Shown here: positions 1-63,189 of the stretch, one piece after another
Layout: each line of letters starts with the position of its first letter
Numbering within the stretch: position 1 is the first letter of the stretch
Assembly (NCBI GenBank): GCA_963829055.1
Contig: CAWHHI010000020.1
Coordinates: 1 to 64,000, forward strand
Source: an uncultured Gemmatimonadaceae bacterium
GTDB lineage: Bacteria; Gemmatimonadota; Gemmatimonadetes; Gemmatimonadales; Gemmatimonadaceae
Direction: 5' to 3'
Length of the DNA: 64,000 nt
The notes under the pieces: generated by a model
Told to the model about the DNA's origin: nothing
Databases searched by the model: none
What the model saw: only the letters and a program-made list of their open reading frames with translations
Made by a program: the position numbers and the translations under genes

Positions 1-187
1 CAACGGGCTTCTTCGTCTTCGAGAACGCTTCGAAGACCTGGGCGACGACGGCGCCCGACGTTAGGCCAGTGAGAGCGCCGGCAGTGCACGCCGCGCAGTT
101 GAGGGAACGGAAATCGACTTCGACGTTGTCCGCCATGGCGACCGTCGCCGCGGTGTTGACTGGTACCGTCACCGGGAATTTCGCCAT
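1..187 (-). CDS. Possible partial hypothetical protein running off the window edge
   Basis: ATG at 187 opens a stop-free frame to base 1 (MAKFPVTVPVNTAATVAMADNVEVDFRSLNCAAC...). No family recognised. Confidence 0.35.
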   Translation of the reverse strand, partial: MAKFPVTVPVNTAATVAMADNVEVDFRSLNCAACTAGALTGLTSGAVVAQVFEAFSKTKKPV

Positions 188-376
188 TGCTGGTCTTGTC
201 TTGCAAAGTGTCCATGATCCGACGGTCGCCCGAACATACGGACGTTCGTTCCCCGCCTGCCAGTGGTGCCCGATGCCCCGGAGGCGCGTCGGTCGCGGCA
301 CACGTGTGCGCCACCGAGCACTCGACGTTGGCGTTAGGCGCCCCGGCCTCGCGCGCGGCTGTCCTCCGACCCGGTT

Positions 377-460
377 GGGGTCAGACTCGAGTCTGACTCC
401 CGGACGGGCACTGGACGGTGCGTTCGAACGACCGATTGGGGTCAGACTCGAGTCTGACCC
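377..460. repeat. REP family A doublet (GGGGTCAGACTCGAGTCTGACCCC palindrome)
   Basis: Two copies of the palindrome at 377-400 and 437-460, with CGGTGCGTTCGAACGA in the spacer. Same motif flanks the RAYT gene. Confidence 0.9.
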
Positions 461-583
461 CAATTGCTCAAGGTCCCCAAGTTCCACGAAAGTGTCCGGA
501 TCGGGGCCCGGACGTGTACGCGCGCTGCACCCGGAGTGACCTTTCCCGCCATTCCAAAACCCCCACCCGTCACGGTGTTTACA

Positions 584-1183
584 ATGCGCTCCGTTCCCTA
601 CCTGACCGTCATTATCGCGCTCACCGGTGCCGCCGAGGCACTCGCGGCGCAGCCGACGCTGCGCCCGGCACTCAGTGGCCGAGCCACGAGCGTCGTCACG
701 CTCGCCGTTCCGCGCGATCCAGCGCAGCCCGCCGCCCAGCCGGCTGCCGCCCCGACCACGCCACCCATCACCATCGCGCTCGACTACGGCCAGCCCCACC
801 TCCGCGGACGCACGCTGCACACCGACAGCCTCGTGCCGTATGGCACACCGTGGCGCACCGGCGCCAACGACCCGACGACGCTCACGACCGGCGTCGATCT
901 CGTAGTCGGAGGCGCGACCCTCCCCGCCGGCAAGTACGTGCTCTACACGATCCCCAGTCGCGACGACTGGAAGCTCATCATCCAGAAGAGCGCCGGCCAG
1001 ACGGCGGAGTACGATCCCAAGCACGACGTCGCCCGCGTGGACCTCCGCCGCCAGTCGCTCACCGAGCCGGTCGAGAGCCTAACGATGTGGCTCATCCCGT
1101 CCTCCGCGCCCGGGAAGGCCCGCGGCGAGCTGCGGCTGGCCTGGGGACGAACCGTCGTCTCCACAGACTGGTCGGTGAAGTAA
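584..1183 (+). CDS. DUF2911 domain-containing secreted protein
   Basis: Signal peptide from ATG 584; motif DYGQPHLRGR...LVPYGTPWRTGANDPTTL...AGKYVLYTIP. Confidence 0.85.
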   Translation: MRSVPYLTVIIALTGAAEALAAQPTLRPALSGRATSVVTLAVPRDPAQPAAQPAAAPTTPPITIALDYGQPHLRGRTLHTDSLVPYGTPWRTGANDPTTLTTGVDLVVGGATLPAGKYVLYTIPSRDDWKLIIQKSAGQTAEYDPKHDVARVDLRRQSLTEPVESLTMWLIPSSAPGKARGELRLAWGRTVVSTDWSVK

Positions 1184-1328
1184 CCGAACCTCGGGGGACG
1201 AGCCGTCTGGCGCGTGCCGGTGTGGCGAGACAAGCTGTAGACGCCTGTGCCCGCCTGTTACAGGCGGGCACGAGCTGTAGGGCGGCTCGAACCACCTCCG
1301 CTATCCCGGTATCCCGGCGAGGAACGGC

Positions 1329-3807
1329 ATGGAAACCCTGATGCAGGACATTCGCTACGCGGTGCGAGGCCTCCGCAAGGCGCCCGCGTTCACGCTCGTC
1401 GCGCTCCTGACGCTCGCCCTCGGCATCGGCGTCAACAGCTCGATCTTCAGCGTCGTCAACGCGATTCTGTTTCGGCCGCTGCCCGTCGACCGGCCTAACG
1501 AGCTGGTCGACATCTACGGCCACGAGGCCACGTCGTCCGAGCACGAGACGCACTCGTACCCGAACTACGTGACGTACCGGAGCCAGACGACCACGCTCTC
1601 GGACCTCATCGGGTACTCGAACTTCTTCGCGCACCTGTCGATCGGCGGGAGCTCCGACCTCGTCGTCGGCGAGCTCGTGACCGACAACTACTTCCGCACG
1701 CTCGGCGTTCGGCCCGCGCTCGGGCGCGTCTTCGCCGGCGACGAGGCGTCGGCCATCAGCGCCTCGGCACTCGCCGTCCTGAGCGACCGCTTCTGGAAGA
1801 CCAAGTTCGCGGGTGCGCCGGACGTCGTCGGCAAGACGTTCAAGATGAACGGGATCGTCTACACCGTGATCGGGGTCGCGCCGCCGGAGTTCCGCGGAAT
1901 GATGCCCGCCGTCACGGCGCAGATGTGGATCCCGGTCACGATGGCCGAGAAGGTCGAGACGTTCGGAAATCAGCGCACGTCCGGGCGGTCCACCGGCGAC
2001 ACACGCTTCGAGCGCCGCGGCCAGGGCTGGATGTGGCTCAAGGGCCGCATGAAGCCGGGCATCGAGCCTGCACAGGTGCGCGCCGAGTTCGACGGGCTGG
2101 TGCGCCGTCTGGGCGAGGACGTACCCGGAGACCATGGCAAAGGAGCGGATCTCCGTCGTCCCGACGCGCGACGTACGCATCAATCCGGACTTCGACTCTA
2201 CCCTCACGCCCGCGGGACTACTGCTGGTCGCCGCCGTCGGACTGGTGCTCGTGGTCGCGTGCGCGAATCTCGCGAATCTCATGCTCGCGCGCGCCGCGGG
2301 GCGTCGGCGCGAGATCGCGGTGCGCGTGGCGTTAGGCGCCGAGCGCGCGAGGCTCATCCGTCAGCTGCTCACGGAGAGCGTTCTGCTCGCGCTGCTCGGT
2401 GGCGCGCTCGCGCTGCCGCTCGCCGTCGTGCTCTCGGGAGTCATTGCGCGGGTGCAACCACCGCTGCCCATCGACCTCGGGCTGGCGGTGAGTCCCGACT
2501 GGCGCGTCCTGGTCTTCACGTTCGTGGTCGCGATCGTCACCGGCGTCGTGTTCGGGCTCGTCCCCGCGCTGCGAGCGTCGCGGCCTGATCTCGTGCCGGC
2601 GCTCAAGGACGCGAGCGCGACCGGCAAGCGGCGGCATTTCGAGCTGCGCGACACGCTCGTCGTCGTGCAGGTCGCCGTGTCGCTCGTGCTCGTCGTCGGC
2701 GGCGCGCTGCTCGTGCGCAGTCTGGCGGCCGCGGGGCGCGTGCCCCTCGGCTACGACGGCGACCGCACGGCATACCTATCGCTGGCGCTCGAGATGAACG
2801 GGTACGATCGCGTGCGCGGCGGACAGTTCCTCGAGGACGGGCGTGCAGCGTCTCGAGGCGCGTGCCGCAGGTCCAGGCGGTCGCGCTGACGAGTCGGCTC
2901 CCGCTCTCGCTCAACAACAACGGCTTCTCCCTGTACATCCCCGGCCACGAGACGGCGGACAACCGGCCGATAGCGATCGACGGCGCCTACGTGGACGAAC
3001 GCTACTTCGACGCGCTCGGCCTAACGATGCTGGCGGGACGAGACATCGAGCCGGCGGATCGCGACGAGTCGCGCCGCGTGGCCGTGATCACGAACACGAT
3101 GGCGCAACGCTACTGGCCCGGGTCGGCGGACGAACGCACTGAGTCGCGAGTTTCGACTCCGCGAGGGCGACGAACCGTATCGTGTGATCGGCGTCGTCGC
3201 GGACTACAAGGTGGACACGCCCGGGGAGAAGTCGAAGTCGTACATCCACCTGCCGCTCGGCCGGCAGGACTCGTTCGGCAACTTCGTCGTGCGGACGTCG
3301 GGCGCGGCGAATGGGATGGTGCCCGTGCTGCAACGCGAGCTGCGCGCGCTCGATCCTGAGCTCGTGTTCCTCGACCGCGGCACGATGCGCGATCTGGCGG
3401 ACGTTAGGCTCTTCGCGGTGCGGGCCGGTGCGTGGCTGATCGGTGCGTTCGGGGCGTTCGCGCTCGTCGTGGCGGCGGTCGGGCTCTACGGCGTCATCGG
3501 GTACTCGGTCAGCCGCCGCGTCCGCGAGATCGGCATCCGCAAGGCGCTCGGCGCACGGCCGGGCCAGCTGCTGGGAATGGTGCTCGGTGAAGGCATGGTG
3601 CTCGTGGCCATCGGCGGCGTGATCGGCGCCGTCCTGGCAGGGGCGACGGCGCGCGTGCTGTCGAGTGTGTTGTTCGTGGGTCCGTTCGACGCGGTCAGCT
3701 TTGCCCTGGCCTTCGGCGTTCTCGCGTTCGTCGCGCTGCTGGCCAACGCGGTGCCGGCGCTCCGGGCGGCACGGGTCGATCCGATGGTCGCGTTACGGTC
3801 GACCTAG
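1329..3807 (+). CDS. ABC transporter permease, duplicated MacB-PCD/FtsX (ADOP type); about 3 frameshifts
   Basis: MQDIRYAVRGLRKAPAFT..LALGIG, ACANLANLMLAR..RRREIAVRVALGA, GLYGVIGYSVSRRVREIGIRKALGA and RAARVDPMVALR lie in consecutive ORFs 1329, 2134, 2862 and 3184. Confidence 0.9.
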
Positions 3808-4007: not shown

Positions 4008-5622
4008 ATGCGTCGTCTCGCCGCCGCTCTTCTTGCTCCTGTGTTCACCGCGGCCCTAACGGCGTGCGCGAGGCCGACCACGCAGGTCGGCACCGTCGCT
4101 CCGCAGGCCGTGAGTGCGGAGCAGCTCGAACACCAGCAGCTCGTCATCGAGAACCTTCGCCAGCAGCAGCGCGTCGAAGACGTCGGCCACGCCCTTCTGG
4201 CGGCGGCCACTCCGTTTTGCCCTGGTGGGCTCGCACCACGCGTGGGAGTTCGCTTCGCGAACGTCCACTCCTTCCCCCCCGAGGATCAGGAAGCCGCTCG
4301 CTCACTCGGATTCACCGACACGCTCGTCATCGTCGGCGTGGCCCGGGGCTCGACGGCGGCGCGCCATGGATTCTTGCCAGGCGACCGCGTCGTCGCGGTG
4401 GACGGTGGCCCACCACCCCGGGGGCCTAACGCGGTGTCGCAGCTCGCCAGCACGTTCGCGGGCCGGCCCACCTACGCCCCGAGGCTGACGCTCGAGCAGG
4501 GACCGGCCCGGTTCATCGCGGACGTCGGCTCGGCGGGCAACGCGGCCGTCGCGACCGCCGCGCGCGACGGAGGACAACTTCGCGTCGCGATGCCGGCAGA
4601 CACGGTCGTGCGGGTTCAACCTCGTTGTGGCACGAAACGATGATCTCGACGCCTGGGCCGACGGCGTGAACGTCACGGTCACCTCGGCAATGCTTCGCTT
4701 CGTCGCCGACGATGATGAGCTGGCGGCGGTCCTCGCACACGAGATCGCGCATACCGCGTTGCGTCACGTGCCGGCGCAGCAGAAGAACCCGGCCACGGAC
4801 GGCCAGCCCAGCGCGATCGGTGACGGCGCGACGGTGTACTCCCAGGACTTCGAGGGCGATGCGGACTACGCGGCCATGTATGTGCTCGCGCGCGCGGGAC
4901 GGCCGATCGCGACGGTGGCGAATCTCTGGCGACGGCTGGCGCAGGGGAATCCCGCCGGCATGAAGTACGCGTCCGCGCACCCGACGACGCCCGACCGATT
5001 CGTTAGGCTCGAGGTTGTCTCGCGCGAGATCGAGCAGCAGATCGCACGGGGCGCGGAGCTGCGGCCGGCGATGCGCGATGGGTCTCCGTCACCAGGGTCA
5101 CCAGGGAGCGCGGTCGCGCAGGCACCGGCGAAAACCGGTGCCGCCGCGCGCCGCGCCGCGTCAGCTACAGCGGCCGTGCTCGTCGACAGGGGGACTCAGT
5201 CGACCGCGTTGGTGCAGGTGCCCAGAGAGTCGGCGCCAACCCGGCCCTCGAGCGCCGGCGACGTAGCACTGATCAGCACCACGACGATCGTCCGCGGGGA
5301 CACGGTGTCGTACACCTTCGGTCCGCCAACGTCGAGAAACGGGTTGAGCGTCCCGCAGGTGCGACGCCATGCGCGTGAGGCATACGACGACGGGCGCGAG
5401 GCGCTGGAGCTCCGGCTGTACCAGCGGGCCGAGGACAAGTTTCGCGAGGCGATCCTCTACGACGGTAGCGACGCGCGCTACCACGCGGCACTCGGTGCCG
5501 TCCTCCTGAAGCGCGGCAAGCCCCTGGAGGCGGAGGCAGTGCTCAGCGCGGCAGTGCTGCTGGATGTCGAGAACGCCGGGTATCGGCAACTTCTGGTCGA
5601 GGCTCGGAAGCGCGACGAGTAG
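4008..5622 (+). CDS. M48-family metalloprotease lipoprotein with PDZ and C-terminal TPR; frameshift near 4610
   Basis: Lipobox LTAC, PDZ-like GFLPGDRVVAVDG, ELAAVLAHEIAH zinc motif, EGDADY, HPTTPDR and a TPR-like C-terminus. Confidence 0.8.
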
Positions 5623-5711
5623 TGGAGCAAATCAGAGATCAGGATAGCATGTCGGTGCGCGTCGCCTAACGTGACCGGTCTGCTTCCGGCGCCGGTCCAG
5701 CGGCAGCGGAA

Positions 5712-6130: not shown

Positions 6131-7556
6131 TCACCGCCGCTGGAACCTGAAGCCCGTAGCCCGTCCCGCCCCAATCGTGAACCCGGTCGCTGCTGCGCCG
6201 GGCGCGCTGCGTTCGAAACGAACCGTTTGCCCGCCGCCCCGGAACGTATCGGGACCGATCGGCACGAGCACCTGCATCGGGACGTGATGCCCCGCGTACG
6301 TGAGGCGACCGTCGCGCCAGGTGACGTGATACGTCGCGTCCACCTCTTCACTGTAATAGTCGCCAGCGAGACTCGCGAAGTCGGCGTTCGCGCCGCTCGT
6401 TAGGCCTCCGTCCGCGGGAGGGCGCTGCGGCGGCTGCGGCCGCACGTTGCGTCTTCGGACCCATCTTGTCGCCCAGGTAGACCTCAGCCACCGCCTCGGC
6501 GAGCGGTCCGGTATTGATCGCGCCAAGGTTGCAGGTCTCGAGCACCGTGAAGTGCTGCTCGGGAAAGCGGTAAATGTGCGCCTTGTACCCCATGAGCGCG
6601 CCGCCGTGCTCCGTCGTGCGCAGACCACGGTATGAGGCGACGTTGTTGCCGAATGCGTATGGGAGCGTGTCCCCCGAGGTCAGCACGCCGCGCGTGTGAA
6701 TCATCTTCTGCAGCGCCTCACCGCCCACCTTGTGCGTGTAGTAGTTCTCGTCCCACTTCCGCAGGTCGTCGAGAGTCGTATAGAGCCCCCCGGCACCGAT
6801 CTTGTCGAAATTCTGCATGTACGAGATGCGATAGGCACCCGCACTGTCGCGCTCGTAGCTCATCGCCCGCTTCTTCATCACGTGCCCGGGGTCGTCATGG
6901 AAATGCGTGTGCGTCATCCCGAGCGGCTGGAACATGCGCTCGTCCGCAAACACTCGCAGTGACTTTCCCGTCACGCGCCTAACGAGCTGCGCCATGAGGA
7001 AGTAGCCGGAGTTACTGTACAGATGCGCACTCCCCGGTGTGAAGTTGAGCGCCTTCTGACGCGCGATCAGCGCGACCGCCTCCGAGTCCGCGTACACATC
7101 CTCCATTCGGAGCCCCGCGATCCCCATGATCCCATACACGTCGCGAATGCCACTCGTGTGGTGCACGAGATGCCGGATCGTGATCGGCGATCCGTAGTCC
7201 GGCATCTCGGGGAAGTATTTTCGAATGTCGTCGTCGAGTGAGACCTTGCCGTCGAGCACGAGGAGCCCGAGGGCCGCGGCCGTGAACTGCTTCGAAACGG
7301 ACCCGACGTAATACACCATCTCCGGGCCATTCGGGATGTCGTAGTCGAGGTTCGCCATCCCGTAGCCGCGCTGATAGATGAACCGCCCGTTTTGAACGAC
7401 TCCGACCGCACAGCCAGGTGAGTCCGGCTTGTCCCACTCGGCGAAGATGCGATCGACCTTCGGATTCGGAGGAAACTGCTGCGCCTCGGCCGAACTGCCG
7501 GCTGCAATCAGGGCGCACACGGTCACGGTGAAGGCGACGCGGATCGTCGATACCAT
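6131..7556 (-). CDS. Serine hydrolase, beta-lactamase/AmpC-like family; frameshift near 6410
   Basis: Signal peptide, SVSKQF (SxxK), LVHHTSGIRD, YSNSGY and HGG. C-terminus continues in another frame. Confidence 0.88.
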
Positions 7557-7598
7557 GGGAGATCGCTCCTCTCGTTAGGCCTGCCGAGCGGGTCAGAT

Positions 7599-7680: not shown

Positions 7681-8993
7681 TCAGCTCTTCGGGATGTTCG
7701 GGTTTCCGATTCGCTCCACGGTCGGCAGCGGGAAGCATTTCGTGTCGCCATACGGCAGACCCGTCGCGTCCACTCCAGTGGGGTGAATCGAGCCGGGCTC
7801 GCCCTTGAACGGGATCGCCCACGGCGTACCCCGGAAGCGGAGATGATCGTTCAGCCGGTGACCGCCTTCGGCGAACATCTCGCGCCGACGCTCCTCGATC
7901 ACCTGAGCGATGACCTCGGTCTGGGTCGCGGTGCCGCCCGCATCGTAACCCGGAATGCCGGCCGCCGCATGCATCGCGTTGATCAGCTGCCGGGCCGTCC
8001 CCAGGTCGTTCGTTCGCGCGGACGCCTCGGCGATGATCAGCCGTGCTTCCTTGAACGACGTGATCACGACCGGGAACGAGCGCGATGTGTGCTTGTTCGT
8101 GGGGAAGTAATGGATCTGGGCGTTGTCGAACGCCAGCTGGTTTTTCGTCGAGACGGCGACGCGCGGATCGGGCACACCAGCCCACGTGATCGCGCGGTAG
8201 TTAGGCGCGACGGTCGCGTGCCGGTTCGTTGCGCAGGTGACGTACTCGCAGAGCGCATTGTAGCGCCGCGTGTCGCTATCGTCGCGCGTGGCGTTCTTGA
8301 CGTAGGTGGCCGGAATGAGCCTCGCATCGGCGAGCGCTCCCGCATAGTTCCCGAGGTCCAGCCTGACGCGCGCCCGGCCGGCCAGCGACATGTTCAGAAT
8401 GTCCTGGTTGTTCGCCGCTGTCGCGAGCGCGATTGCCTCTGTGAAGCGTGTCTCGGCGAGCGGCGAGCACTTCCTTCGGCGTCATGAGTGGTCCGCCATC
8501 GATCGCCATCTCGCAGAAGCCTTCGCCGAGTGCGAGCAGCGCGTACGCGCCGTACGCCTTCACCGTCGCCTTGAGGAGCGTCCGGTTCGCCACCTGCGCG
8601 TCGGTGAACTTGTCGAGGCGATTGAACGAATCCTCGGCCTGGAACCGCGCCGTCTGCAGCGTCGTGTAGATGCCGTACTGGGTGCGGCAGCTTCCCTGCG
8701 CCATGTCGGCATCGTCCGCCGTGATCGCGGCGCGACGCCCAGTTGCGCTGGTTCAGGTTGCCCGACGCCTGAATGAACTCGTCGCCGATGAGCGCGGCCG
8801 CCGCGACGTAGTTGTTCCAGGCACACTCGAAGTCGGAGACCACGCTGGCCACCATGGTGGGCGCCAGTGCCGGGTCATTGAGCGCTTCTTCCTGCACGCG
8901 GCCTGGCACGTGCACGTCGAGGATGTCGCTGCAGGCAGCGATCGGGAGAAAGACGAGCGCGAGCCCGAGCGTCAGTGCGTGGCGGTTCGTCAT
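7681..8993 (-). CDS. RagB/SusD-family outer-membrane lipoprotein; frameshifts near 8460 and 8730
   Basis: Lipobox IAACSD, EARLIIAEA and IEERRREMFAEGGHRLNDHLR. Directly downstream of SusC. Confidence 0.88.
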
Positions 8994-12179: not shown

Positions 12180-12395
12180 GCGTTACCTCCGTGAGGTGTG
12201 CAGGGCGTGCGTTCCGAAATCGAGGCTCCGATCATTCTACGCCGCCGGGTGCGCGGGACAAGAGCGGTGCCGTGTCGGCCGCGCATGGCGCGCTATCCGG
12301 GGACTCGCCCGTCGATCCGGCCGGACGACGAAAATCGACACTGACCCCCAGTGGTGCAACGATGCGCCTAACGGCAAGAAGCGCACGCCTAACGT

Positions 12396-48187: not shown

Positions 48188-48218
48188 ACTCCCAAACTCC
48201 TGCGATGATACGGTACCG

Positions 48219-48935
48219 TTAGGCGATCCGCTCGTACCACGCCAACGGCTCCGGAAGCTCCTCGGCCGCGAAGTCCAGGTGCACCACCCGACGGTGGCCC
48301 GGCACCGTCGCCTGCGACGACGCGTGCAGGATCAACGGACGCAGCGCGAGGATCGCGCCCCGTTCCGCGACGCAATCGACTGACGGGCTTCCGTTGCGCC
48401 AGGCGTCGATCGCCGACGCCGACAGTTGGCCCACACGGTGCGACCGCGCGAGTACGCGCACGGGACCATTCTCAGGACCACAGTCGTCCAGATGAATACG
48501 GACGGCGAGCATCCGCTCGAGAATCTCGATCGGCGGCTGCACGTGCGTGACGCCCGCCTTCTCGCTCCACGGCCCGAAGCCGGCGGTGATGACGCGCGAG
48601 TGAACCGCGATCGTCAGGTCCTGATGCCACATGACCTTCGAATTCGCGGCCGCTGTCGTGTCGAACAGGATCCCGCGGACCGCGAAACAGTGCGGGCCCA
48701 GCACCGCCTCGGCTACCTGCCTCACCGCCGCCGACGTCGCGAGATCGCGCACCGCAGCAGACACCTCGAACAGGTTGCGGATGCCACCGCGTGCGACCTC
48801 CGGATCGGTCAACCCCGACAGCTCCGCCGCGAGCCGATCGACCATGAGTTGAGGAACCACCGGTCCCGTCCTCGCGAACCCGTCCTGCTCGATCGCGGCC
48901 GCGACCTGTGATTGCTCCACCGTACTCAACTCCAC
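48219..48935 (-). CDS. Phytanoyl-CoA dioxygenase-family 2OG-Fe(II) oxygenase
   Basis: WHQDLTIAV, RIHLDDCGPENGPVRV and LILHASS..RRVVHL. Confidence 0.9.
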   Translation of the reverse strand: MELSTVEQSQVAAAIEQDGFARTGPVVPQLMVDRLAAELSGLTDPEVARGGIRNLFEVSAAVRDLATSAAVRQVAEAVLGPHCFAVRGILFDTTAAANSKVMWHQDLTIAVHSRVITAGFGPWSEKAGVTHVQPPIEILERMLAVRIHLDDCGPENGPVRVLARSHRVGQLSASAIDAWRNGSPSVDCVAERGAILALRPLILHASSQATVPGHRRVVHLDFAAEELPEPLAWYERIA

Positions 48936-55585: not shown

Positions 55586-56573
55586 AACTCCGCGCACGAC
55601 TCGCCTCCATCGCGAGCTCGTACGACGCCAGCCGCGCCGCATGATCGAAGATCTGCGACGCGACCATCAGCTCATCCGCGCCTGTGCGCGCGACGATCTC
55701 GTCCAGACCTGCTCGCACCTGGTCGCGCGTGCCCACGACGCTGTACGACAGCATGTCGTCGAGCATCGCCCGCTCGAACGGCGCGAGCGACTGCTCGAAT
55801 CCATCCGCTGGTGGCTTGAGCGGACCCGGACGACCGCGACGCAGGTTGATGAACGCCTGCTGCAACGACGTAAATAGCCGGCGCGCCTCCGCCTCCGACT
55901 CGGCCGCGAAGACGTTGACCCCGAGCATCGCGTACGGCTGCTCCAACTGCGGCGACGGCCGGAATTGCGTGCGGTACACATCGAGCGCTTGCTCGAGCAT
56001 CGCCGGCGCGAAGTGCGACGCGAACGCGAATGGCAGGCCGAGCGCGGCCGCCAACTGTGCGCCGAACAGGCTCGAGCCAAGGATCCAGATCGGCACCTCG
56101 AGGCCGGCGCCGGGCACCGCTCGCACCGCTTGCCCCGGCTCCGCCGGCCGGAAGTACGCCATGAGCTCGAGAACGTCCTGCGGAAATGTGTCGCCAGCGG
56201 CCGGTGAACGCCGCAGGGCTCGCGCGGTGATCTGATCTGACCCAGGTGCACGGCCGAGCCCGAGGTCGATCCTGCCAGGATAGAGTGAGGCCAGCGTGCC
56301 GAACTGTTCGGCGATGACGAGCGGCGGGTGGTTAGGCAGCATGATGCCACCGGCGCCGACTCTGATGGTCGACGTTCCTCCGGCGACGTAACCGATGAGC
56401 ACGGACGTCGCCGCGCTCGCCACGCTCGGAATGTTGTGATGCTCCGCCAGCCAGAACCGGCGGTAGCCCAGCCGTTCCGCGTGACGCGCGAGGTCGAGAC
56501 TGTTCCGGAATGAAGCGGCCGCGTCGCCACCCTCGACGATCGGGGCGAGGTCGAGCACTGACAGCGGAATCAT
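55566..56573 (-). CDS. Luciferase-like (LLM class) flavin-dependent oxidoreductase
   Basis: [37 protein letters not shown] and [11 protein letters not shown]. Confidence 0.93.
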
Positions 56574-56830: not shown

Positions 56831-56850
56831 ACTGCGCTATGCATGCGCCC

Positions 56851-57553
56851 TCACCCGTCCAGGCGCCAGAACGCTCCCGTCAAACCCGCCTGCTCGAAGA
56901 TCGCGTGCGCCTCGTCCATCGTCGCACGGCGCCACGTTGACGACAGCCGATTGTGAAACCACGGCTGTGCCAGACGCCATAACGCGTCCAGGCTGAACAC
57001 CGCGCCCACCGGGATCCCCGACGTCGCGCTCCATTGCCTGACGTGCTCCTCCGACCGGAAGAGTCGCATCGTGCTTCACGTGAAGACGATGTCAGCCCAC
57101 CAGCGGGCAGCAGGCACCGCGAAGTGGACCACGGCGTCGGGCTCGTGCGCTCGTTAGGCGACCATCCCGAACCTCGAGGCCGAGCGGCGCAGCACAGTCC
57201 GCACACCGGGTCGCGATCGTGGCGTCCATCGGCCGTCCCGCGCCTGCCAGCATCGCCGGAACACCCACCGCGTCCCAGATGCAGTTCGCGTAGACCGACC
57301 GATCGCCGAGGCGCACCGAGAAGTCGGTGGGCACGCCCGCCAGCGGCGCCGCCATGAGGATGTCGCGCGAGCTCGGCTCGAGCACGATCGCGCGTCCCGC
57401 CGCCAGCCTATCGAACGCCGCCGCAACGTCGTTGTCCCCTAATCCGAGATCACGAGCGACGCTCGCGACCGACGGCGCTCGCCCATCCAGAAAACCGTTC
57501 AGTATGGTTAGGCGCACGCTCGCGTCGAGATCCGTCACGGCACGGTCGCTCAC
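56851..57553 (-). CDS. MerB-like organomercurial lyase, probable selenoprotein; one indel near 57148
   Basis: MAAPL, YANCIWDA, CADC, then VVHFAVPAARWWADIVFT-TGA-STMRLFRSEEHV. TGA at 57078-57076 is in frame with ORF 56851..57069. Confidence 0.82.
57046..57063 (-). promoter_or_regulatory. Putative bacterial SECIS element
   Basis: Starts after 12 nt downstream of the UGA: stem CUCUUCC/GGAGGAG with GGUC loop, resembling the E. coli fdhF SECIS apex. Confidence 0.7.
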
Positions 57554-59175
57554 TGCACGACCGCCCCGCGCGCCTCGGGCTTCGCCTTCCGCGGCAGCTT
57601 CTCATCGCGCTGCGCCGCCATGAACGCGAACGCGGCGGACACCGTCGCCTGCTGCACGAGGTCCTCGCGCTGGACGCGATCCACGAAGTCCATGTTCGAG
57701 TGATGCGTGCGCGAGTTGTACTCGAGACGCTCCTGCACGAACTGGAAACCGGGCAAGCCAACCGCGTCGAACGACGCATGGTCCGTCGAGCCGACCGCGC
57801 GCGGGCCCAGGATCTCGACACCGAGATCCTTCAACGGCTCGATCCACTGCTCGAAGATCGGACGCGTGCCAAGATTTCCCTGATACCAGATGCCGCGGAT
57901 CTTGCCCGTGCCGTTGTCGAGGTTGAAGTAGGCCGCGAGCTTGTCCCACTCCGGCTTCGTCTGCATGGTCGCCGGGTCGGCGTAGTGCTGCGCGACGTAC
58001 GCGCGCGATCCCATCAGCCCTTCCTCCTCGCCGCCCCAGAGTGCGATGCGGATCGTGCGTCGCGGCTTGATGCCACTCGCCTTGAGAATGCGCATCGCCT
58101 CGATCATCGCGACGCTGCCCGTCGCGTTGTCCGTCGCGCCCGTGGCACCGTGATGCGAGTCGAAGTGGGCGCCGAGCATGACGACTTCGTCCTTCAACTT
58201 CGGGTCAGTCCCCGGAATCTCGGCCACGATGTTGAAGCCGCCCTTCCCTTCCGGCTCGTCGAGGAACTTCGTCTCTACGTGTAGCTCCATCTTGACCGGC
58301 ACGCCACGATCGAGAATGCGCACCATGCGGTTGTAGTGCTCGACGGCGATCGTGATGTTCGGCAATCCCTTGCCGGCGTTCTCATCGCGAGTGCCGCCGG
58401 TGCCGACGAAGATCGTTCCGCCGTCCACGCGCTGCGCCTGCCACGAGAGGTCACTGCCGCCGGCGCTCAGGTCGCTGTCGGCCCCGCGATCGATGAGCGC
58501 GATCGCGCCCTCGCTCTGGTAGAATTGCGCGACGCGCTGCGCGAACTGCTGGCCCTGCGCGAATCCGCCCGGGCCGCCGCGACCGCCACTCGCCTGCGCG
58601 GGGACGGGCGTCGTCTTCGCCTCGGCGACATCGTCGTCGTTCATGCGCAGGACGATGCGGCCGTCGAGCATGCGGACGGCGCGCGCAGGCTGCGTGAGCA
58701 CGATCTTGCCCTGCAGCTTGCCCTTGTACTTGTCGAAGTCCGCGGCGGTGACGATCGGCGCCAGCACGACTTCAGCCTGCACGGTGCCGTTCGTGCTCGA
58801 CGTCCACGACTTCGGAAGTCCGATGATGGGCATGATCTGCGGCTCGATCATGTGCGCGTGGAAGCGCACGAGCTGCCATCCCTTGCCGAACGCCCACGGC
58901 TCCTCGTGAATGTTCGAGAGGCCCCACTCGCCGAACTTCTTCTTGGTCCAGTCCGCCGCCTGACGGATACCGGGGCCACCCGTTAGGCGCGGGCCGTACA
59001 CGTCGGCGATCCACGAGATGTGGTCCATCGCCTGCGATCGCTGCAGTCCCTCATCCTTGATGCGCGCGAGCGTGGCGTAGTCGATCTTCTCCGGATTCGC
59101 GGGGGCGCCGGTCTGCGCCCCGGCGGCGGAGAAGGCGACAACGCAGGAGAAGGCGAAGTAACGGATCGTGTTCAT
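57550..59175 (-). CDS. M28-family secreted metallopeptidase
   Basis: YGPRLTG, GAHFDS, GATDNATG, WGGEEEGLMGS, NLDNG and STDH. Confidence 0.92.
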   Translation of the reverse strand: MNTIRYFAFSCVVAFSAAGAQTGAPANPEKIDYATLARIKDEGLQRSQAMDHISWIADVYGPRLTGGPGIRQAADWTKKKFGEWGLSNIHEEPWAFGKGWQLVRFHAHMIEPQIMPIIGLPKSWTSSTNGTVQAEVVLAPIVTAADFDKYKGKLQGKIVLTQPARAVRMLDGRIVLRMNDDDVAEAKTTPVPAQASGGRGGPGGFAQGQQFAQRVAQFYQSEGAIALIDRGADSDLSAGGSDLSWQAQRVDGGTIFVGTGGTRDENAGKGLPNITIAVEHYNRMVRILDRGVPVKMELHVETKFLDEPEGKGGFNIVAEIPGTDPKLKDEVVMLGAHFDSHHGATGATDNATGSVAMIEAMRILKASGIKPRRTIRIALWGGEEEGLMGSRAYVAQHYADPATMQTKPEWDKLAAYFNLDNGTGKIRGIWYQGNLGTRPIFEQWIEPLKDLGVEILGPRAVGSTDHASFDAVGLPGFQFVQERLEYNSRTHHSNMDFVDRVQREDLVQQATVSAAFAFMAAQRDEKLPRKAKPEARGAVVQ

Positions 59176-60305
59176 CAGCGATCACCGTGAAATGTCTTGT
59201 TGCCGCGAGGTGTTGGCGGCGCCGGCTGCCAGCGACCGGACTCGTAGTCCATCCAGCGCATGAACAGCGCGTCCGAGTAGTCGGCCAGAATCTTCTTGCC
59301 GTCCGGCAGCTTCGCCACCGTCTCGCGCAGTACGTCCGGGTACGAGCCGCGCGCCGCACCGACGAGCGCGATCACGCCATCGTACGCCGCGCGATAGTCC
59401 TTCGCGGTGAACGTGACGGTCTGATCAGCGTACGTGATCCCCGGAAGGTCTTTGAGCGACGCGAGACTGGCGGGCGGAACCGCGTGCAGCCCGGCCTTCA
59501 TTGGCGTTGCCAGCGTCATGATCTTCGCCTTCGAGATGTTGCGCACCGCACGCGCGGCTTTCTCGCGCATCTCGGCGTGCACTTCATCCACCGGACGCAG
59601 CTCTACCGTGGAAGCGCTCGTCGCCTTCTTCGTCACGACGAACTCGACCCACGGCAGGATCTTCAGGTCGTTCTGCAGCCGATCGTCGCCGGAGACGAAG
59701 ATGATCGGCACGCCGACGCGACCCCACGAGTAGCCGACGATCTCGCTCTCCGTGATCGACTTGCCGTTGAGCAGCATGTCCATGCCGAGCGTGATCGTGT
59801 GCGACGCGAAGCCGCGACTCCCGGTCTTCGCGTGCATGGCGACCGCGACCACGGCGTCGTACACGTTAGGCTCCGTGATGTCCACGTACGGATCGAACGC
59901 CTTGTCGCGGATCACCTGCTTGGCGCGCTTGTCGAGCAGGTCGCGCCGCACGTCCGGATCGGGATTGCCGCTCCCGTGCGCGTCGACGACGTCCACCTGC
60001 GTCGCGCCGCCGGCGTAGAGGCCCTCGATCACGGCGTTGATGTCCGCCGCGAGCATCTTCTGCCCCTCGGGATACTTCTCCGGGTGACTGAAGAGGAACG
60101 TGCGCCAGTCGTCCTGGCCGGCGAGTCCCTCCATGTCGTGATACAGGAGAATCCGGACGGGGGCCGCGGGCGGACGTCGGGATGGCGACGGGGAGGCGTG
60201 GGTGCGCGCCGGCTCGAACGCATCACCGAGCGTGGCTGTCGCCGCAGCCGCGATGACGAGCGTGAGGAGGGCGGCAGTGAGGTGTACGACGCGTCGGTTC
60301 GTCAT
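59175..60305 (-). CDS. M55-family (DppA-like) D-aminopeptidase, exported
   Basis: HDMEG, VVDAHGSG, MHAK..FASHT and VSGDD. Confidence 0.88.
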   Translation of the reverse strand: MTNRRVVHLTAALLTLVIAAAATATLGDAFEPARTHASPSPSRRPPAAPVRILLYHDMEGLAGQDDWRTFLFSHPEKYPEGQKMLAADINAVIEGLYAGGATQVDVVDAHGSGNPDPDVRRDLLDKRAKQVIRDKAFDPYVDITEPNVYDAVVAVAMHAKTGSRGFASHTITLGMDMLLNGKSITESEIVGYSWGRVGVPIIFVSGDDRLQNDLKILPWVEFVVTKKATSASTVELRPVDEVHAEMREKAARAVRNISKAKIMTLATPMKAGLHAVPPASLASLKDLPGITYADQTVTFTAKDYRAAYDGVIALVGAARGSYPDVLRETVAKLPDGKKILADYSDALFMRWMDYESGRWQPAPPTPRGNKTFHGDR

Positions 60306-60471: not shown

Positions 60472-61338
60472 TCACGCGAGCTTGTCCGGATTCACCACGA
60501 TGAACACCTGCGCCACGCGCCCGGCGGCGGCATTGATAGTGATAACGCCGCGCAGTCGTCCACCGGTGTGGTGCGACAGCCCGAGCCCTCCGTTGACCGG
60601 ATCGACGCGCACCTCGCCCGCCGAGCGCCACTTGCGCACCACTGCGGCCAGGAAGCGCGCGACGTGCTCCGCACCGAGCACCGGCCGACGTGCCGCCGCG
60701 AACTTTCCGCCGCCGTCCGCCCATGCGACGGCGTCGTTGGCCAGCAGCGCGAGGAGACCGTCCATGTCGCCCGTAGTGCAGGCATCCAGAAAGCGGCGCG
60801 CGAGGTCCTGCGCGGCGTCGGCGTCCCGGTTGAACCGCGGACGCCCGCTGGCAATCCCCTGCTTCGCTCGCTGCACGAGCTGCCGGCAGTTGGCTTCGCT
60901 CGTGTCGAGCATGCCAGCGATGTCGGAATACTCGTAGCCGAACACCTCACGCAGCAGGTACGCGGCACGCTGGGTCGGCGTTAGGCGTTCGAGCAGCACC
61001 AGGAACGCCGTGGAAAGGGACTCCGCCAGCTCGGCCGACGCGATCGGGTCGCGCTGGTCCACACCCATGAGCGGCTCCGGCAGCCACGGGCCGACGTACA
61101 CCTCGCGGCGCACCCGGGCGGACCGGAGATGATCCACCGCCAGACGAGTCACCGTCGCGGCAAGGAAGTCCTTTGGCGAGCGCACTTCGGCCTGGTCTGC
61201 CCTGAGCCAGCGAAGATACGCTTCCTGAACGATGTCTTCCGCGTCCGCCGCACTGCCGAGCATCCGGTACGCGATGGAAAACAGGAGCGGGCGATGCTCG
61301 CGAAACACTTCGAGACGAGGATCGGTAGCGAAATCCAT
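60472..61338 (-). CDS. ECF41 (SigJ-type) RNA polymerase sigma factor with SnoaL-like extension
   Basis: LFSIAYRMLGSAADAEDIVQEA, YVGPWLPEP, ADGGGK and NPDKL. Confidence 0.93.
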   Translation of the reverse strand: MDFATDPRLEVFREHRPLLFSIAYRMLGSAADAEDIVQEAYLRWLRADQAEVRSPKDFLAATVTRLAVDHLRSARVRREVYVGPWLPEPLMGVDQRDPIASAELAESLSTAFLVLLERLTPTQRAAYLLREVFGYEYSDIAGMLDTSEANCRQLVQRAKQGIASGRPRFNRDADAAQDLARRFLDACTTGDMDGLLALLANDAVAWADGGGKFAAARRPVLGAEHVARFLAAVVRKWRSAGEVRVDPVNGGLGLSHHTGGRLRGVITINAAAGRVAQVFIVVNPDKLA

Positions 61339-61355
61339 CGTCGCACGTCGTGGCG

Positions 61356-62579
61356 TTAGGCGGCGGACCGTACGATACGGTCTGGCGCGATGGTGCGAGC
61401 CGCAGGCCAGCCAAACGGCGGCGGGTAGATCATCCAGGTGTTGATCGTCTGCTTCATGACCTTCCCCCAGAATCCCGTGAGGTGCACTTGTCGATCCCAC
61501 CCCTGGGTAAACAGCCCTCCCCAGTCGCCGAGGTCGAGGCAGGTGACGTAGTCCGGTTGCAGAAACCTGCTGGGTTCACGACCCGACAGCTCGGCCACGG
61601 CGTTACGGCCCGCACGCTCACCCATGGGGATGGCGTATTGACACGACATGGGTGCGACGTGCTCACCGTCCGCCAGCGCGTGGGCAACGTCGCCGGCGGC
61701 AAAGACGCCATCGACGCCACGCACGCGAAGGCATTCATCCACCATGGTGCGACCAAGGCCATCACGCTCCGCCGGAAGTTGCAGAGTGAGATCACTGGCG
61801 CACAAGCCGGCAGTCCACACCGCCGTCGCGGCGGCGATGCGCTCGCCACTCGTGAGGGTAACGTGGCCGCCATCGATCTCCGCGACGCTGGTGCCGACGC
61901 GGACAGCAACCCCGAGCTCGCGGAGCGCCGTCTCCACGATTGGCCGGGGATTCGACCCCAGGCCCGGTGCCACCGCCGACGCACGCTCGACCAGCACCAC
62001 CGCCGGCCGCTCGCCCGCACCGGCACGCGTCGCGAGGGAGCGCAGGCGGCTGACCATGGTGGTCGCGACTTCCAGCCCGGCGAATCCCGCCCCAACGACC
62101 ACGGCGGTGAAACGCCCGGCACGCGTGCGGTCCGACGGCCTCCTACCGAGCCCAGCGAGATGGCGGTCGAGGGACACGGCCTCGTCGTATGTGTCGACGC
62201 TGAACGCGTGCTCGCTGGCGCCCGGGATGTCGGGCCGGCGCAGACGACTGCCGGCGGCGAGGATCAGGCGGTCGTAGGACAGTATCGTGCGGCCGCGGAT
62301 CGCGTCTACCGCGACCGTTCGCGCGGCAGCGTCGATGCGCGTCACATTGCCGAGCATGAGCTCCACGCCGAGGGAGTCGAGAAGGTCGCCGAGAGGGACG
62401 CGCATCCCCTCGGGATCGGCCTCATAGAGTCGCGGGCGGATCGTGAGGTACGGCTCGCGGGTGACCAGGGTGATCCGCAGGTCCGCGGCCGCGCGGCGGA
62501 GCTCGGCGCGCGCCGCGGCCGCACCTAACGCGCTCCACACGCCGGCGAAGCCTCCGCCAATGATCAGTAGCTGCTGCAT
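61356..62579 (-). CDS. NAD(P)/FAD-dependent oxidoreductase (NDH-2-like)
   Basis: IIGGGFAG, YDRLILAAGS, VVGAGFAGLE, VFAAGD and MSCQYA. Confidence 0.9.
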   Translation of the reverse strand: MQQLLIIGGGFAGVWSALGAAAARAELRRAAADLRITLVTREPYLTIRPRLYEADPEGMRVPLGDLLDSLGVELMLGNVTRIDAAARTVAVDAIRGRTILSYDRLILAAGSRLRRPDIPGASEHAFSVDTYDEAVSLDRHLAGLGRRPSDRTRAGRFTAVVVGAGFAGLEVATTMVSRLRSLATRAGAGERPAVVLVERASAVAPGLGSNPRPIVETALRELGVAVRVGTSVAEIDGGHVTLTSGERIAAATAVWTAGLCASDLTLQLPAERDGLGRTMVDECLRVRGVDGVFAAGDVAHALADGEHVAPMSCQYAIPMGERAGRNAVAELSGREPSRFLQPDYVTCLDLGDWGGLFTQGWDRQVHLTGFWGKVMKQTINTWMIYPPPFGWPAARTIAPDRIVRSAA

Positions 62580-62922
62580 TGAACGAAACCGGTTGGAGTA
62601 CACGAACGAGAGGGGAACCTCACATGGGACGAGATTGGCCTCCGTTCTGTGACACTCCGTCGACACTCGCGCCGCTTCTCAGGTCGCGCGCGTCACGTCA
62701 AAGTACCAGCGCCCTACGGTCACTCCTCGCGCGACGTCGACGTACCACCGAAGCCCGGCTTCTTCGGACTCCCCTTCCTCGGTGCGACACCAGGAGGACG
62801 CTCGGCGCCTTTCGCCTTCGGGTGACTCCGTGGATTGTCGCGCCCCGCCGGATCGGAGCCGGAGCTCCGGCGCTTCCGCCCTGCCTTGCCTCCCTTCATT
62901 GCCTACCTCCGGGTGAGTGGTC

Positions 62923-63080
62923 GTCATTCCGAGCGGTCGTCATTCCGAGCGGAGCGCCGAAGGCGCGCAGTCGAGGAATCGTTGCTTTCAGGGTAGAGCG
63001 GCTTGCCCCTCTACCGGGAGGTCAAGGATTCCTCGACTCGCTGTCGCTCGCTCGGAATGACGACCGCTGCGCGGAATGAC
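62923..63080. repeat. Repeat family B hairpin with duplicated ends
   Basis: GTCATTCCGAGCGG twice, ..GTCGAGGAATC / GATTCCTCGAC..GGAATGAC twice. Confidence 0.85.
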
Positions 63081-63189
63081 AACAACGAATCTTACGTCCC
63101 CGGGCCCGGTTGAAACAGCCGGCCATGCCTAACGTACGGCGGGGTTCGAATCGCCTATCGGAATGAGCGCAGAGGCCCGACCTTACGTC

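What the first reader, a model, noticed from the sequence alone, without database searches (positions are those of the whole stretch)
60..63133. Dispersed non-palindromic motif (C)GTTAGGC/GCCTAAC(G) at about 1 per kb: candidate uptake, self-mark or chromosome signal
Seen: my manual scan found about 69 exact heptamers. About 42 are GTTAGGC (e.g. 60, 333, 2331, 3403, 5002, 6399, 10799, 19307, 27311, 38211, 52202, 60980) and about 27 are GCCTAAC (e.g. 1077, 1493, 3019, 9881, 12366, 12387, 20022, 30291, 47204). There are also about a dozen 1-mismatch variants. Most extend to the octamer CGTTAGGC. Assuming about 68% GC, base composition predicts about 7. Copies are isolated, lie on both strands, and mostly sit inside genes through codons that are rare here (TTA-GGC, GTT-AGG, CTA-ACG, CCT-AAC). 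The motif also supplies stop codons at 48219 and 61356. Known: Neisseria DUS, Pasteurellaceae USS and cyanobacterial HIP1 pervade coding DNA at comparable density, while Chi and KOPS are strongly strand-polarised. Inference: an undescribed lineage-specific signal, such as a DNA uptake sequence, a methylation/repair-driven motif or a nucleoid-protein site. I know of no such motif described for this group.
Basis: partly seen in the sequence, partly recalled or inferred. Interest (0 to 1): 0.9.

Follow-up and report, generated by a model that had tools for sequence, protein, structure and literature searches.

The report
Hyper-abundant genome word CGTTAGGC
This soil bacterium has written one eight-letter DNA word about five thousand times through its genes on both strands, against its own codon habits, much like the self tags by which Neisseria and Haemophilus recognise their own DNA, but what reads the word is still unknown.

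Summary
GTTAGGC occurs 69 times in the window (42 +, 27 -; 2.4 expected), and 63 of the 69 are the octamer CGTTAGGC. Genome-wide there are 5004 octamers in 7.78 Mb. That is 17x base composition and 22x a synonymous-codon shuffle. Copies lie in all four stop-free frames, on both strands, without flank conservation. They arise in place by point substitutions and are kept in orthologues more often than other 8-mers: 26 of 50 versus 21%. There is no replichore polarity (53.5%, against 86.5% for a control word). The word is patchy. It is dense in 16 of 68 sampled genera of the family and in some Chthoniobacterales, another phylum, as the dialect TCGTTAGGC. Phages also carry it. It spells the integron attC core, but integron integrase does not track it. 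No reader was found, so every mechanism below is inferred. Best guess, at 0.35: an uptake or transfer self tag like DUS/USS. An intracellular tag of the HIP1 kind is nearly as likely. No paper describing it was found. This scan has met the same word before on other DNA: ten earlier notes turned up.

The parts
60..66 (+). word copy, octamer CGTTAGGC
   Evidence: outside my ORF calls
333..339 (+). word copy, octamer
   Evidence: outside ORF calls
1077..1083 (-). word copy, octamer
   Evidence: gene strand reads GC-CTA-AC
1493..1499 (-). word copy, octamer; kept in 2 of 3 orthologues
2331..2337 (+). word copy, octamer; kept in all 6 species aligned
   Evidence: NNG-TTA-GGC
3019..3025 (-). word copy, octamer; only in this genome among 6 aligned
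3403..3409 (+). word copy, octamer; kept in G001 and G002, one transition off in G005
   Evidence: GTT-AGG-C
4424..4430 (-). word copy, octamer
   Evidence: gene strand G-CCT-AAC
5002..5008 (+). word copy, octamer
   Evidence: GTT-AGG-C
5664..5670 (-). word copy, octamer
   Evidence: outside ORF calls
6399..6405 (+). word copy, octamer
   Evidence: gene strand G-CCT-AAC
6977..6983 (-). word copy, octamer
   Evidence: GTT-AGG-C
7574..7580 (+). word copy, octamer
   Evidence: outside ORF calls
8200..8206 (+). word copy, heptamer only (A before it)
9881..9887 (-). word copy, octamer; not in G005 orthologue
10799..10805 (+). word copy, octamer; kept in G005
10937..10943 (+). word copy, octamer; last letter T in G005
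11658..11664 (+). word copy, octamer; one letter off in G005
12366..12372 (-). word copy, octamer; not in G005
12387..12393 (-). word copy, octamer; kept in G005; closest pair in the window (21 bases)
14523..14529 (-). word copy, octamer
   Evidence: NNG-TTA-GGC
17659..17665 (-). word copy, octamer
19307..19313 (+). word copy, heptamer only (T before it)
19527..19533 (+). word copy, octamer
20022..20028 (-). word copy, octamer
21368..21374 (+). word copy, octamer; kept in 3 of 3 orthologues
22107..22113 (+). word copy, octamer; absent from 3 of 3 orthologues
22325..22331 (-). word copy, octamer; kept in 3 of 3
22900..22906 (+). word copy, octamer; absent from 3 of 3
24128..24134 (-). word copy, octamer; kept in 3 of 3
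26010..26016 (+). word copy, octamer; absent from 2 of 2
26666..26672 (-). word copy, heptamer only (T before it)
27311..27317 (+). word copy, octamer
28797..28803 (+). word copy, octamer
28884..28890 (-). word copy, octamer
30093..30099 (-). word copy, octamer
30291..30297 (-). word copy, octamer, at an ORF end
31175..31181 (+). word copy, octamer
31582..31588 (-). word copy, octamer
32441..32447 (+). word copy, octamer
32851..32857 (-). word copy, octamer
34148..34154 (-). word copy, octamer
35127..35133 (-). word copy, octamer
37336..37342 (+). word copy, octamer
38211..38217 (+). word copy, octamer; three letters off in 3 of 3 orthologues
39651..39657 (-). word copy, octamer
40547..40553 (+). 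word copy, octamer
41733..41739 (+). word copy, octamer
42082..42088 (-). word copy, octamer
43500..43506 (+). word copy, octamer
47204..47210 (-). word copy, octamer; kept in 2 of 2
48218..48224 (+). word copy, octamer; gives the TAA stop of minus-strand ORF 48219..48935
50045..50051 (+). word copy, octamer; kept in G005
51310..51316 (+). word copy, heptamer only (T before it)
51883..51889 (+). word copy, octamer
52202..52208 (+). word copy, octamer
52825..52831 (+). word copy, octamer
53146..53152 (+). word copy, octamer
54180..54186 (-). word copy, octamer; kept in 2 of 3
54721..54727 (+). word copy, octamer; kept in 2 of 3
55094..55100 (+). word copy, octamer; kept in 1 of 3
56331..56337 (+). 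word copy, heptamer only (G before it)
57153..57159 (+). word copy, octamer
57507..57513 (+). word copy, heptamer only (G before it)
58982..58988 (+). word copy, octamer
59865..59871 (+). word copy, octamer
60980..60986 (+). word copy, octamer
61355..61361 (+). word copy, octamer; gives the TAA stop of minus-strand ORF 61356..62666
63127..63133 (-). word copy, octamer

Best explanation
CGTTAGGC is a genomic self tag. It is a double-stranded, orientation-free word created in place by point substitutions. The force that keeps it acts on any DNA segment that carries it. The most likely reader is an unidentified DNA receptor of a transfer route, with natural-transformation uptake as the model. Alleles bearing the word would then be taken up and recombined more often, and the word would spread through the genome by molecular drive, as described for DUS in Neisseriaceae and USS in Pasteurellaceae. 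Shown here: the excess, the strand symmetry, the origin in place, the conservation, the phyletic patchiness and the dialects.
For: Density and symmetry: there are 5004 octamers in 7.78 Mb, 2547 forward and 2457 reverse. Average USS spacing in H. influenzae is about 1 kb (PMC7811141, passages).
DNA level, not protein level: copies use all four stop-free frames (1456, 442, 959 and 598) and only 35 sit in the two stop frames. 1456 of all 2819 TTA codons lie in the word. The octamer is 22x a synonymous-codon shuffle.
No flank conservation, so it is not a mobile element.
No polarity: neighbouring copies switch strand in 2720 of 5610 cases, and 53.5% lie on the G-rich strand, against 86.5% for GGGCAGGG.
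Origin in place and retention: window copies are intact in orthologues in 26 of 50 comparisons, against 21% of 49,346 other 8-mers. Partner copies are intact here in 26 of 40.
Halo of one-off variants: 1051 per Mb, against 485 to 590 in two word-poor relatives.
Permissive sites: density rises to about 0.6 per kb per orientation within 100 bases of stop codons, and 163 of 2741 stops lie in the word. USS also lean towards gene termini (PMC2346458, abstract).
Close copies are avoided in this genome: 0.16, 0.25 and 0.51 of expectation at 0-50, 50-100 and 100-200 bases, in all four orientation pairings. Fairly even USS spacing is an expected result of uptake drive (PMC7811141).
Word-free stretches of 30 to 50 kb have atypical codon usage. 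DUS are absent from recently acquired genes (PMC2397512, abstract).
Lineage dialects exist: T precedes the octamer in 97% of 469 copies in G167 and in 25% of copies here.
ComEC, a weak ComEA-like match and a secretin are present in this genome; a PilA-type pilin was seen only in G062.
Against: No ComP-type receptor was found: PF16732 has no match in G000.
ComEC, ComEA-like genes and secretins are just as present in word-poor relatives: ComEC is in 141 of 151 genomes. Gene content therefore gives no support.
Phages carry the word at host-like density. A complete temperate phage has 35 copies in 45.6 kb. A phage with its own replication genes, and no integrase among 39 ORFs examined, has 16 copies in 41.7 kb. 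DUS and USS are reported as under-represented in newly acquired DNA.
The avoidance of close pairs is not seen in the Chthoniobacterales genome G167, where the ratios are 1.30, 0.60 and 1.28.
Inverted pairs of the terminator kind are not enriched: 44 pairs within 100 bases, where roughly 190 would be expected.
Natural transformation was not found reported for these groups in one search.
Word density is flat across codon-adaptation quintiles, 0.55 to 0.61 per kb.
Confidence: 0.35

Rival explanations
1. An intracellular tag. The word is the binding or recognition site of a sequence-specific protein that works inside the cell, for example in nucleoid organisation or in sparing tagged DNA from a host nuclease or defence system. 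Selection keeps it on each stretch of DNA. This is the kind of role proposed for HIP1 in cyanobacteria.
For: Phages carry it, including a probably virulent one. That is easiest to explain if the word matters inside the cell. Copies are conserved above background, which is the argument used for HIP1 (PMC5861425, abstract). It is strand-symmetric. Its patchy, cross-phylum spread fits a mobile reader gene.
Against: No candidate reader was found. No known system of this kind uses an unpolarised 8-mer. The 30 to 50 kb stretches without the word are tolerated. The spacing rules differ between G000 and G167.
Confidence: 0.27
2. A neutral by-product of biased repair or gene conversion that favours the word, with no function.
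For: Such a process would act on all DNA replicating in the cell, phages included. It would also keep existing copies.
Against: One-off variants are raised about twofold rather than swept away. Close pairs are avoided in G000, which a site-by-site bias does not predict. Vsr was not found in G000 or G062. By my own reasoning, a bias at one position can raise a word only about two- to threefold, not 20-fold.
Confidence: 0.12
3. Integron-linked. The copies act as R-box sites for integron integrase, for example as secondary sites for cassette insertion or capture.
For: The word fits the attC core GTTRRRY, and its complement fits RYYYAAC (PMC12901181, passages). Cassette arrays in the sister family end in exactly this octamer: 23 of 24 copies on one strand in G021:C95 and 8 of 8 in G019:C3. 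G000 has its own small integron. A core shared by integrons of many lineages could explain the same word in two phyla.
Against: Integron integrase is over the cut-off in 23 of 36 word-rich genomes and in 66 of 115 others, so there is no association (my reading of the tables). Dispersed copies lack the attC hairpin context. Genomic insertion by IntI needs only GWT (bioRxiv 10.1101/2022.09.11.507474, passages). Insertion sites inside genes would be harmful.
Confidence: 0.08
4. The target of a DNA methyltransferase or other modification system whose marks are needed at a minimum density.
For: The word is non-palindromic and highly specific: single changes at positions 2 and 7 leave only 9 to 58 copies each. 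It is patchy and cross-phylum, as mobile modification systems are.
Against: Known modification targets are not enriched in their hosts. No methylation data or candidate enzyme were examined here.
Confidence: 0.08
5. A Chi- or KOPS-like polar signal for recombination or chromosome segregation.
For: It is an over-represented 8-mer that phages share. One phage-like record, G255, shows a strand flip together with its GC skew.
Against: It sits on the G-rich strand 53.5% of the time, like the control words, while GGGCAGGG reaches 86.5% in the same test. RecC was not found in G000, G062 or G167. No RecB-type nuclease domain was found in word-rich G062.
Confidence: 0.03

Closest known systems
DNA uptake sequences: DUS of Neisseriaceae (receptor ComP) and USS of Pasteurellaceae
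   Same: A short specific word about once per kb. It lies on both strands equally, inside genes in several frames, at permissive sites and gene ends. It arises and is kept in place, has a halo of one-off variants and lineage dialects, and is lacking from foreign-looking DNA.
   Different: No uptake bias is shown and no ComP homologue was found. There are no inverted terminator pairs. Phages carry it. It occurs in two phyla and only in some genera of each.
HIP1 (GCGATCGC) of cyanobacteria
   Same: A hyper-abundant octamer, 15- to 300-fold in HIP1. It is conserved between genomes and its function is unknown (PMC5861425, abstract).
   Different: HIP1 is a palindrome and is spread through most of its phylum. 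This word is asymmetric and patchy. Long-range periodicity was not tested here.
Integron attC core site (R' GTTRRRY, R'' RYYYAAC)
   Same: Identical spelling. Real attC sites of related genomes end in this octamer.
   Different: The dispersed copies have no partner box or hairpin, and they do not track the integron integrase.
Chi sites and KOPS
   Same: Over-represented 8-mers that mark host DNA.
   Different: Those are strongly co-oriented with replication. This word is not.

Membership tests
DNA uptake sequences (DUS/USS) | Competent cells take up DNA with the word in preference to DNA without it | not testable with these tools
   Needs uptake or transformation assays in a cultured word-rich strain.
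DNA uptake sequences (DUS/USS) | Hundreds to thousands of copies, about one per kb, on both strands equally | tested here: met
   5004 copies in 7.78 Mb, 2547 and 2457 by strand.
DNA uptake sequences (DUS/USS) | A dedicated receptor (ComP-type minor pilin in Neisseriaceae) | tested here: not met
   PF16732 has no match in G000. Sub-threshold hits in G062 and G152 are to pilin-like ORFs; the one read, in G062, is an ordinary PilA-like pilin. The receptor of USS is itself unknown, by my recollection.
DNA uptake sequences (DUS/USS) | DNA uptake machinery present | tested here: met
   ComEC at C16, a secretin at C12 and a weak ComEA-like match are present. The same genes occur in word-poor relatives, so this does not discriminate.
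DNA uptake sequences (DUS/USS) | Copies conserved, and under-represented in newly acquired DNA | tested here: inconclusive
   Conserved in 26 of 50 comparisons against 21% background. Word-free stretches have atypical codon usage. But phages carry it at 0.4 to 1.05 per kb, and density is flat over codon-adaptation classes.
DNA uptake sequences (DUS/USS) | Relatively even spacing | tested here: inconclusive
   Close pairs are 4- to 6-fold depleted in G000 but not in G167.
Chi / KOPS | Strong co-orientation with replication | tested here: not met
   53.5% (1285 to 1117), against 86.5% for GGGCAGGG.
Chi | A RecBCD or AddAB enzyme to read it | tested here: not met
   RecC was not found in G000, G062, G115 or G167. 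No PDDEXK_1 match was found in word-rich G062, which is 96% complete.
Integron attC site | R''-L''...L'-R' imperfect inverted repeat that folds as a hairpin | tested here: not met
   There is no conservation beyond one base on each side of the dispersed copies. True attC sites were seen only in arrays.
Integron attC site | Occurs together with an integron integrase | tested here: not met
   23 of 36 word-rich and 66 of 115 other genomes have IntI over the cut-off.
HIP1-like hyper-abundant words | Palindromic octamer | tested here: not met
   The word is not its own reverse complement.
HIP1-like hyper-abundant words | Large excess plus conservation between genomes | tested here: met

The most novel reading that the evidence does not exclude
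The word is the address label of an undescribed, horizontally mobile DNA-recognition system shared by some Gemmatimonadaceae and some Chthoniobacterales. Its reader is tuned to the integron R box. Tagged DNA would be favoured in uptake or spared inside the cell. That would include DNA of fellow tag-bearers in another phylum and integron gene cassettes, and their phages would have copied the tag to pass as self.
Probability: 0.1. Interest if true: 0.95.

Novelty: new variant of a known kind. Interest (0 to 1): 0.8.

Why it matters
By my recollection, sequence-specific self tags of the uptake kind are known from only two bacterial families, both of animal hosts. HIP1 has lacked a function since its discovery. 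Here a tag of equal strength appears in abundant, little-studied soil bacteria of two phyla. It comes with natural contrasts: rich and poor species in one genus, dialects, and phages that carry the word. Those contrasts make its reader findable by association and testable in culture. If it governs DNA exchange, it would shape gene flow in soil, integron cassettes included. It is also a practical marker for assigning phages and contigs to hosts.

Tried and rejected
1. Mobile element or repeat: rejected, because there is no flank conservation.
2. Codon or protein-level cause: rejected.
3. Local strand polarity, suggested by the window's run of + copies at 48-61 kb and by '+ only' listings: genome-wide switches are 0.485. 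The listings were an artefact of how orders rows, since the fetched stretches hold both strands.
4. A replacement word in word-poor relatives: none was seen in 200 kb each of G064 and G055.
5. Integrase association: none.
6. ComEC, ComEA-like, secretin and ComP_DUS as discriminators: none discriminates.
7. RecC, an AddAB-type nuclease and Vsr as readers: absent from word-rich genomes.
8. A hunt for a cross-phylum shared reader: ORFs from 391 kb of G167 were compared by blastp with all G000 ORFs. The 20 most similar hits I annotated were 19 ordinary metabolic, transport or cell-shape proteins and 1 with no family match. The best one, succinate dehydrogenase, is 70 to 75% identical to rich and poor Gemmatimonadaceae alike. 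Only about 12% of G167 was sampled, so this is no evidence of absence.
9. A reader gene on phage G255: 28 ORFs gave only HTH, HNH and Big_2 domains.
10. A prophage in G000 related to the tagged phages: none found by tblastn.
11. A maximal-order Markov model ranks the word low (TTAGGC ratio 1.27). That is only because its sub-words consist almost wholly of copies of the word: 5630 of 5719 TTAGGC follow G.

Full report
OBSERVATION. The 100 dinucleotide-preserving shuffles gave 2.38 +- 1.66, with a largest value of 7. 63 of the 69 are the octamer CGTTAGGC. The next base is G in 31, A in 16, T in 13 and C in 9.

Genome-wide there are 5630 heptamers, 2878 and 2752 by strand, at 0.57 to 0.93 per kb on every contig. 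There are 5004 octamers. Against base composition this is the most over-represented octamer in the genome: 296.8 expected, 16.9-fold. The word is sharply defined. Changing the first G leaves 21 to 35 copies, and changing the second-to-last G leaves 48 to 96. Outside the octamer nothing is conserved except a mild preference for G or A after it. A three-base rhythm in the flanks shows that most copies lie in coding DNA.

IT IS A DNA-LEVEL SIGNAL. I built a crude gene set of 4807 stop-to-stop ORFs chosen by codon usage. It covers 68.7% of the genome. Among the 5630 heptamers:
- 1456 read NNG-TTA-GGC.
- 442 read GTT-AGG-C.
- 959 read G-CCT-AAC on the gene strand.
- 598 read GC-CTA-AC on the gene strand.
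- 35 fall in the two frames that would create a stop.
- 2140 lie outside or at the edge of the calls.

So 1456 of all 2819 TTA codons in the gene set belong to the word. Shuffling synonymous codons within each gene keeps the protein and the gene's codon usage, including the rare codons the word itself brings. That gives 238 +- 11 heptamers against 3527 observed, and 142 +- 9.5 octamers against 3125.

The word often supplies the stop codon. Of 2741 long ORF-genes, 92 of 327 TAA stops and 71 of 727 TAG stops lie in it. Density within 100 bases of the stop is about 0.6 per kb per orientation, against 0.3 to 0.45 further inside genes.

NO POLARITY. Neighbouring copies differ in strand in 2720 of 5610 cases. 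Where the GC skew is clear, 1285 copies lie on the G-rich strand and 1117 on the other (53.5%). Control words of similar make-up do the same. GGGCAGGG gives 109 to 17 in the same test. The window's run of + copies at 48-61 kb is a local fluctuation.

SPACING. In G000, close copies are avoided. With the local density of each 20-kb piece as the null, pairs at 0-50, 50-100 and 100-200 bases are 0.16, 0.25 and 0.51 of expectation, and pairs at 400-1600 bases are in excess. All four orientation pairings are depleted alike. This does not hold in the Chthoniobacterales genome G167, where the ratios are 1.30, 0.60 and 1.28.

Three stretches of 31 to 50 kb hold no copy. They are C6:5441-55037, C11:7377-46790 and C6:591809-623330. 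They hold housekeeping-type genes with low codon-usage scores, and some of these match only part of a family model. They may be foreign DNA or assembly joins to another strain. I could not tell which. Elsewhere, density is flat across codon-adaptation quintiles at 0.55 to 0.61 per kb.

ORIGIN AND RETENTION. Orthologous stretches from same-genus genomes are 75 to 85% identical. They show copies appearing and disappearing by substitutions in place, with no insertions. The copy at 2331 is intact in all six species aligned. The copy at 3019 is unique to this genome.

Over 26 pairwise alignments covering 22 window octamers, the word is intact in the partner in 26 of 50 comparisons. Other 8-mers are intact in 21.0% of 49,346 cases. 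Partner copies are intact here in 26 of 40. The three partners are related, so these comparisons are not independent. Twelve of the 22 sites are kept in at least one partner. Several unique copies differ from the orthologous sequence at three or more of the eight letters. The same was reported for young DUS (PMC2397512, abstract).

One-off variants total 1051 per Mb here and 880 to 1030 in other word-rich samples. They total 485 to 590 in two word-poor relatives. The excess is concentrated at the two ends of the word and in CGTTATGC.

WHO HAS IT. Named Gemmatimonadaceae assemblies match this genome at 66 to 77% DNA identity, which fits that family.
- Of 151 sampled genomes of the family (68 genera), 36 hold at least 0.19 copies per kb. 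They fall in 16 genera. Another 20 genomes are intermediate, and 95 hold fewer than 100 copies, which is below the reversed control word (my tally).
- All seven genomes of the window's genus hold 2500 to 5100 copies.
- One genus is split: G062 has 3896 and G152 has 4141, but G115 has 66.
- Two word-poor genomes show no other hyper-abundant word in 200 kb each.

Three flagged unpublished genomes, G013, G048 and G094, are among the rows, with 9, 13 and 138 copies. No claim depends on them.

A scan for two copies within 30 bases across one genome per species hit many Gemmatimonadaceae and many Chthoniobacterales (Verrucomicrobiota) assemblies. Whole-genome counts confirm 4562, 5186 and 2349 copies in three of the latter, balanced by strand. 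In a sample of 81 genomes of that order, four hold 948 to 4562 copies, two hold 352 to 472, and 75 hold at most 132. There the word is one letter longer. T precedes it in 97% of 469 copies in G167, against 25% here.

PHAGES. Of 67 viral-contig loci of at least 8 kb found by the same seed, 43 hold only the seed pair and 10 hold five or more copies. The whole records hold:

| Record | Size | CheckV completeness | Copies | Per kb |
|---|---|---|---|---|
| G252 | 45.6 kb | 100% | 35 | 0.77 |
| G253 (provirus) | 49.2 kb | 78% | 18 | 0.37 |
| G254 | 41.7 kb | 70% | 16 | 0.38 |
| G255 | 41.1 kb | 40% | 43 | 1.05 |

The reversed control word occurs 0 to 4 times in these records. G252 has a terminase, portal, capsid, tail, endolysin and an integrase. 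G254 has its own DNA polymerase, primase, helicases and 7-deazaguanine genes, and no integrase among the 39 ORFs I examined. The flanks of the word in these phages match the Gemmatimonadaceae type.

THE INTEGRON COINCIDENCE. The lead came from earlier notes of this scan. I tested it. The word fits the attC core site GTTRRRY, and its complement fits RYYYAAC (PMC12901181, passages). In two word-poor genomes of a sister family, regularly spaced same-strand copies turned out to be cassette arrays. Each attC in them begins with the complement and ends with the octamer. G000 has an integrase-like gene at C20:208041-208958 (265.7 bits, cut-off 265) next to a few attC-like sites.

But integron integrase passes the cut-off in 89 of 151 family genomes: 23 of 36 word-rich and 66 of 115 others. 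Insertion by integrases into genomes needs only GWT (bioRxiv 10.1101/2022.09.11.507474, passages). The shared spelling stays unexplained.

SEARCH FOR A READER. None was found.
- ComEC is in 141 of 151 genomes. The ten without it are nine word-poor genomes and one fragmented rich one.
- ComEA-like genes and secretins occur in rich and poor genomes alike.
- ComP_DUS has no match here.
- RecC, Vsr and RecB-type nuclease domains are missing from one or more word-rich genomes.
- A partial cross-phylum comparison gave only ordinary metabolic, transport and cell-shape proteins plus one with no family match.

READING. The excess is too large, too specific and too well kept for composition, codons or a one-position repair bias. 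Something recognises the whole word in either orientation.

Uptake-driven molecular drive is the one documented mechanism that produces this full pattern. I put it first at 0.35. The phage copies, the lack of any gene-content support and the different spacing rule in G167 weigh against it. An intracellular tag of the HIP1 kind stands close behind at 0.27.

No paper describing this word or uptake specificity in these groups was found. Four searches of the held library were run. Most subscription-journal papers are not in that library. This scan has reported the same word on other genomes and on a phage at least ten times.

Noticed in passing
G000:C20:202790-209018 (outside the window; locus L035): A small chromosomal integron. 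It has an integrase-like gene at 208041-208958 on the minus strand (265.7 bits, cut-off 265). attC-like sites start at 205102, 205717 and 207189. They begin with the complement of the word and end in ACGTTAG followed by GT or CC.
   Followed up: partly
L022 (G021:C95:1-20000) and L023 (G019:C3:1-9000): Integron cassette arrays in word-poor genomes of a sister family. G021:C95 has 23 cassette ends on one strand at 410 to 2270 base spacing, and G019:C3 has 8. The attC sites are about 85 bases long.
   Followed up: partly
151 genomes of the family: Integron integrase (TIGR02249) passes its cut-off in 89 of 151 sampled Gemmatimonadaceae genomes. That seems a high share for a soil family, by my impression; I did not check it against published surveys.
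   Followed up: no
G000, whole genome: GGGCAGGG lies on the G-rich strand in 109 of 126 copies where skew is clear. It is a candidate KOPS-like polar word of this genome.
   Followed up: no
G000:C6:5441-55037, C11:7377-46790, C6:591809-623330: Stretches of 31 to 50 kb without a single copy. They hold housekeeping-type genes with low codon-usage scores, and some of these match only part of a family model. They may be foreign DNA or assembly joins to another strain.
   Followed up: partly
L349-L351 (viral record G255, 41 kb): Genes lie almost all on one strand, yet the word flips from 18+/5- to 5+/15- at about 20 kb, together with the sign of the GC skew. This is unexplained and was not seen in the other three phages.
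   Followed up: partly
L346-L348 (viral record G254): A phage with QueC-, QueE-, GTP cyclohydrolase- and DpdA-like genes, which points to 7-deazaguanine DNA modification. It also has its own polymerase, primase and helicases.
   Followed up: no
G170:C4, e.g. 1248337-1271398: An Acidobacteriota genome is poor in the word overall but has many same-strand pairs exactly 25 bases apart. This is probably a small repeat element built around the word.
   Followed up: no
G000, whole genome: CTTAGGA/TCCTAAG occurs 71 times against 4.8 expected from its sub-words, the top heptamer under a maximal-order Markov model. Unexplained.
   Followed up: no
L035:14400-16400 (G000:C20:212400-214400): A gene region built of 135-base tandem units. 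This is a repeat-domain protein and has nothing to do with the word.
   Followed up: no
L181-L200 (G167, Chthoniobacterales): In this genome, same-strand copies 13 bases apart recur (7 of 46 close pairs), and flanks are A/T-rich. The local arrangement of the word differs from G000.
   Followed up: partly
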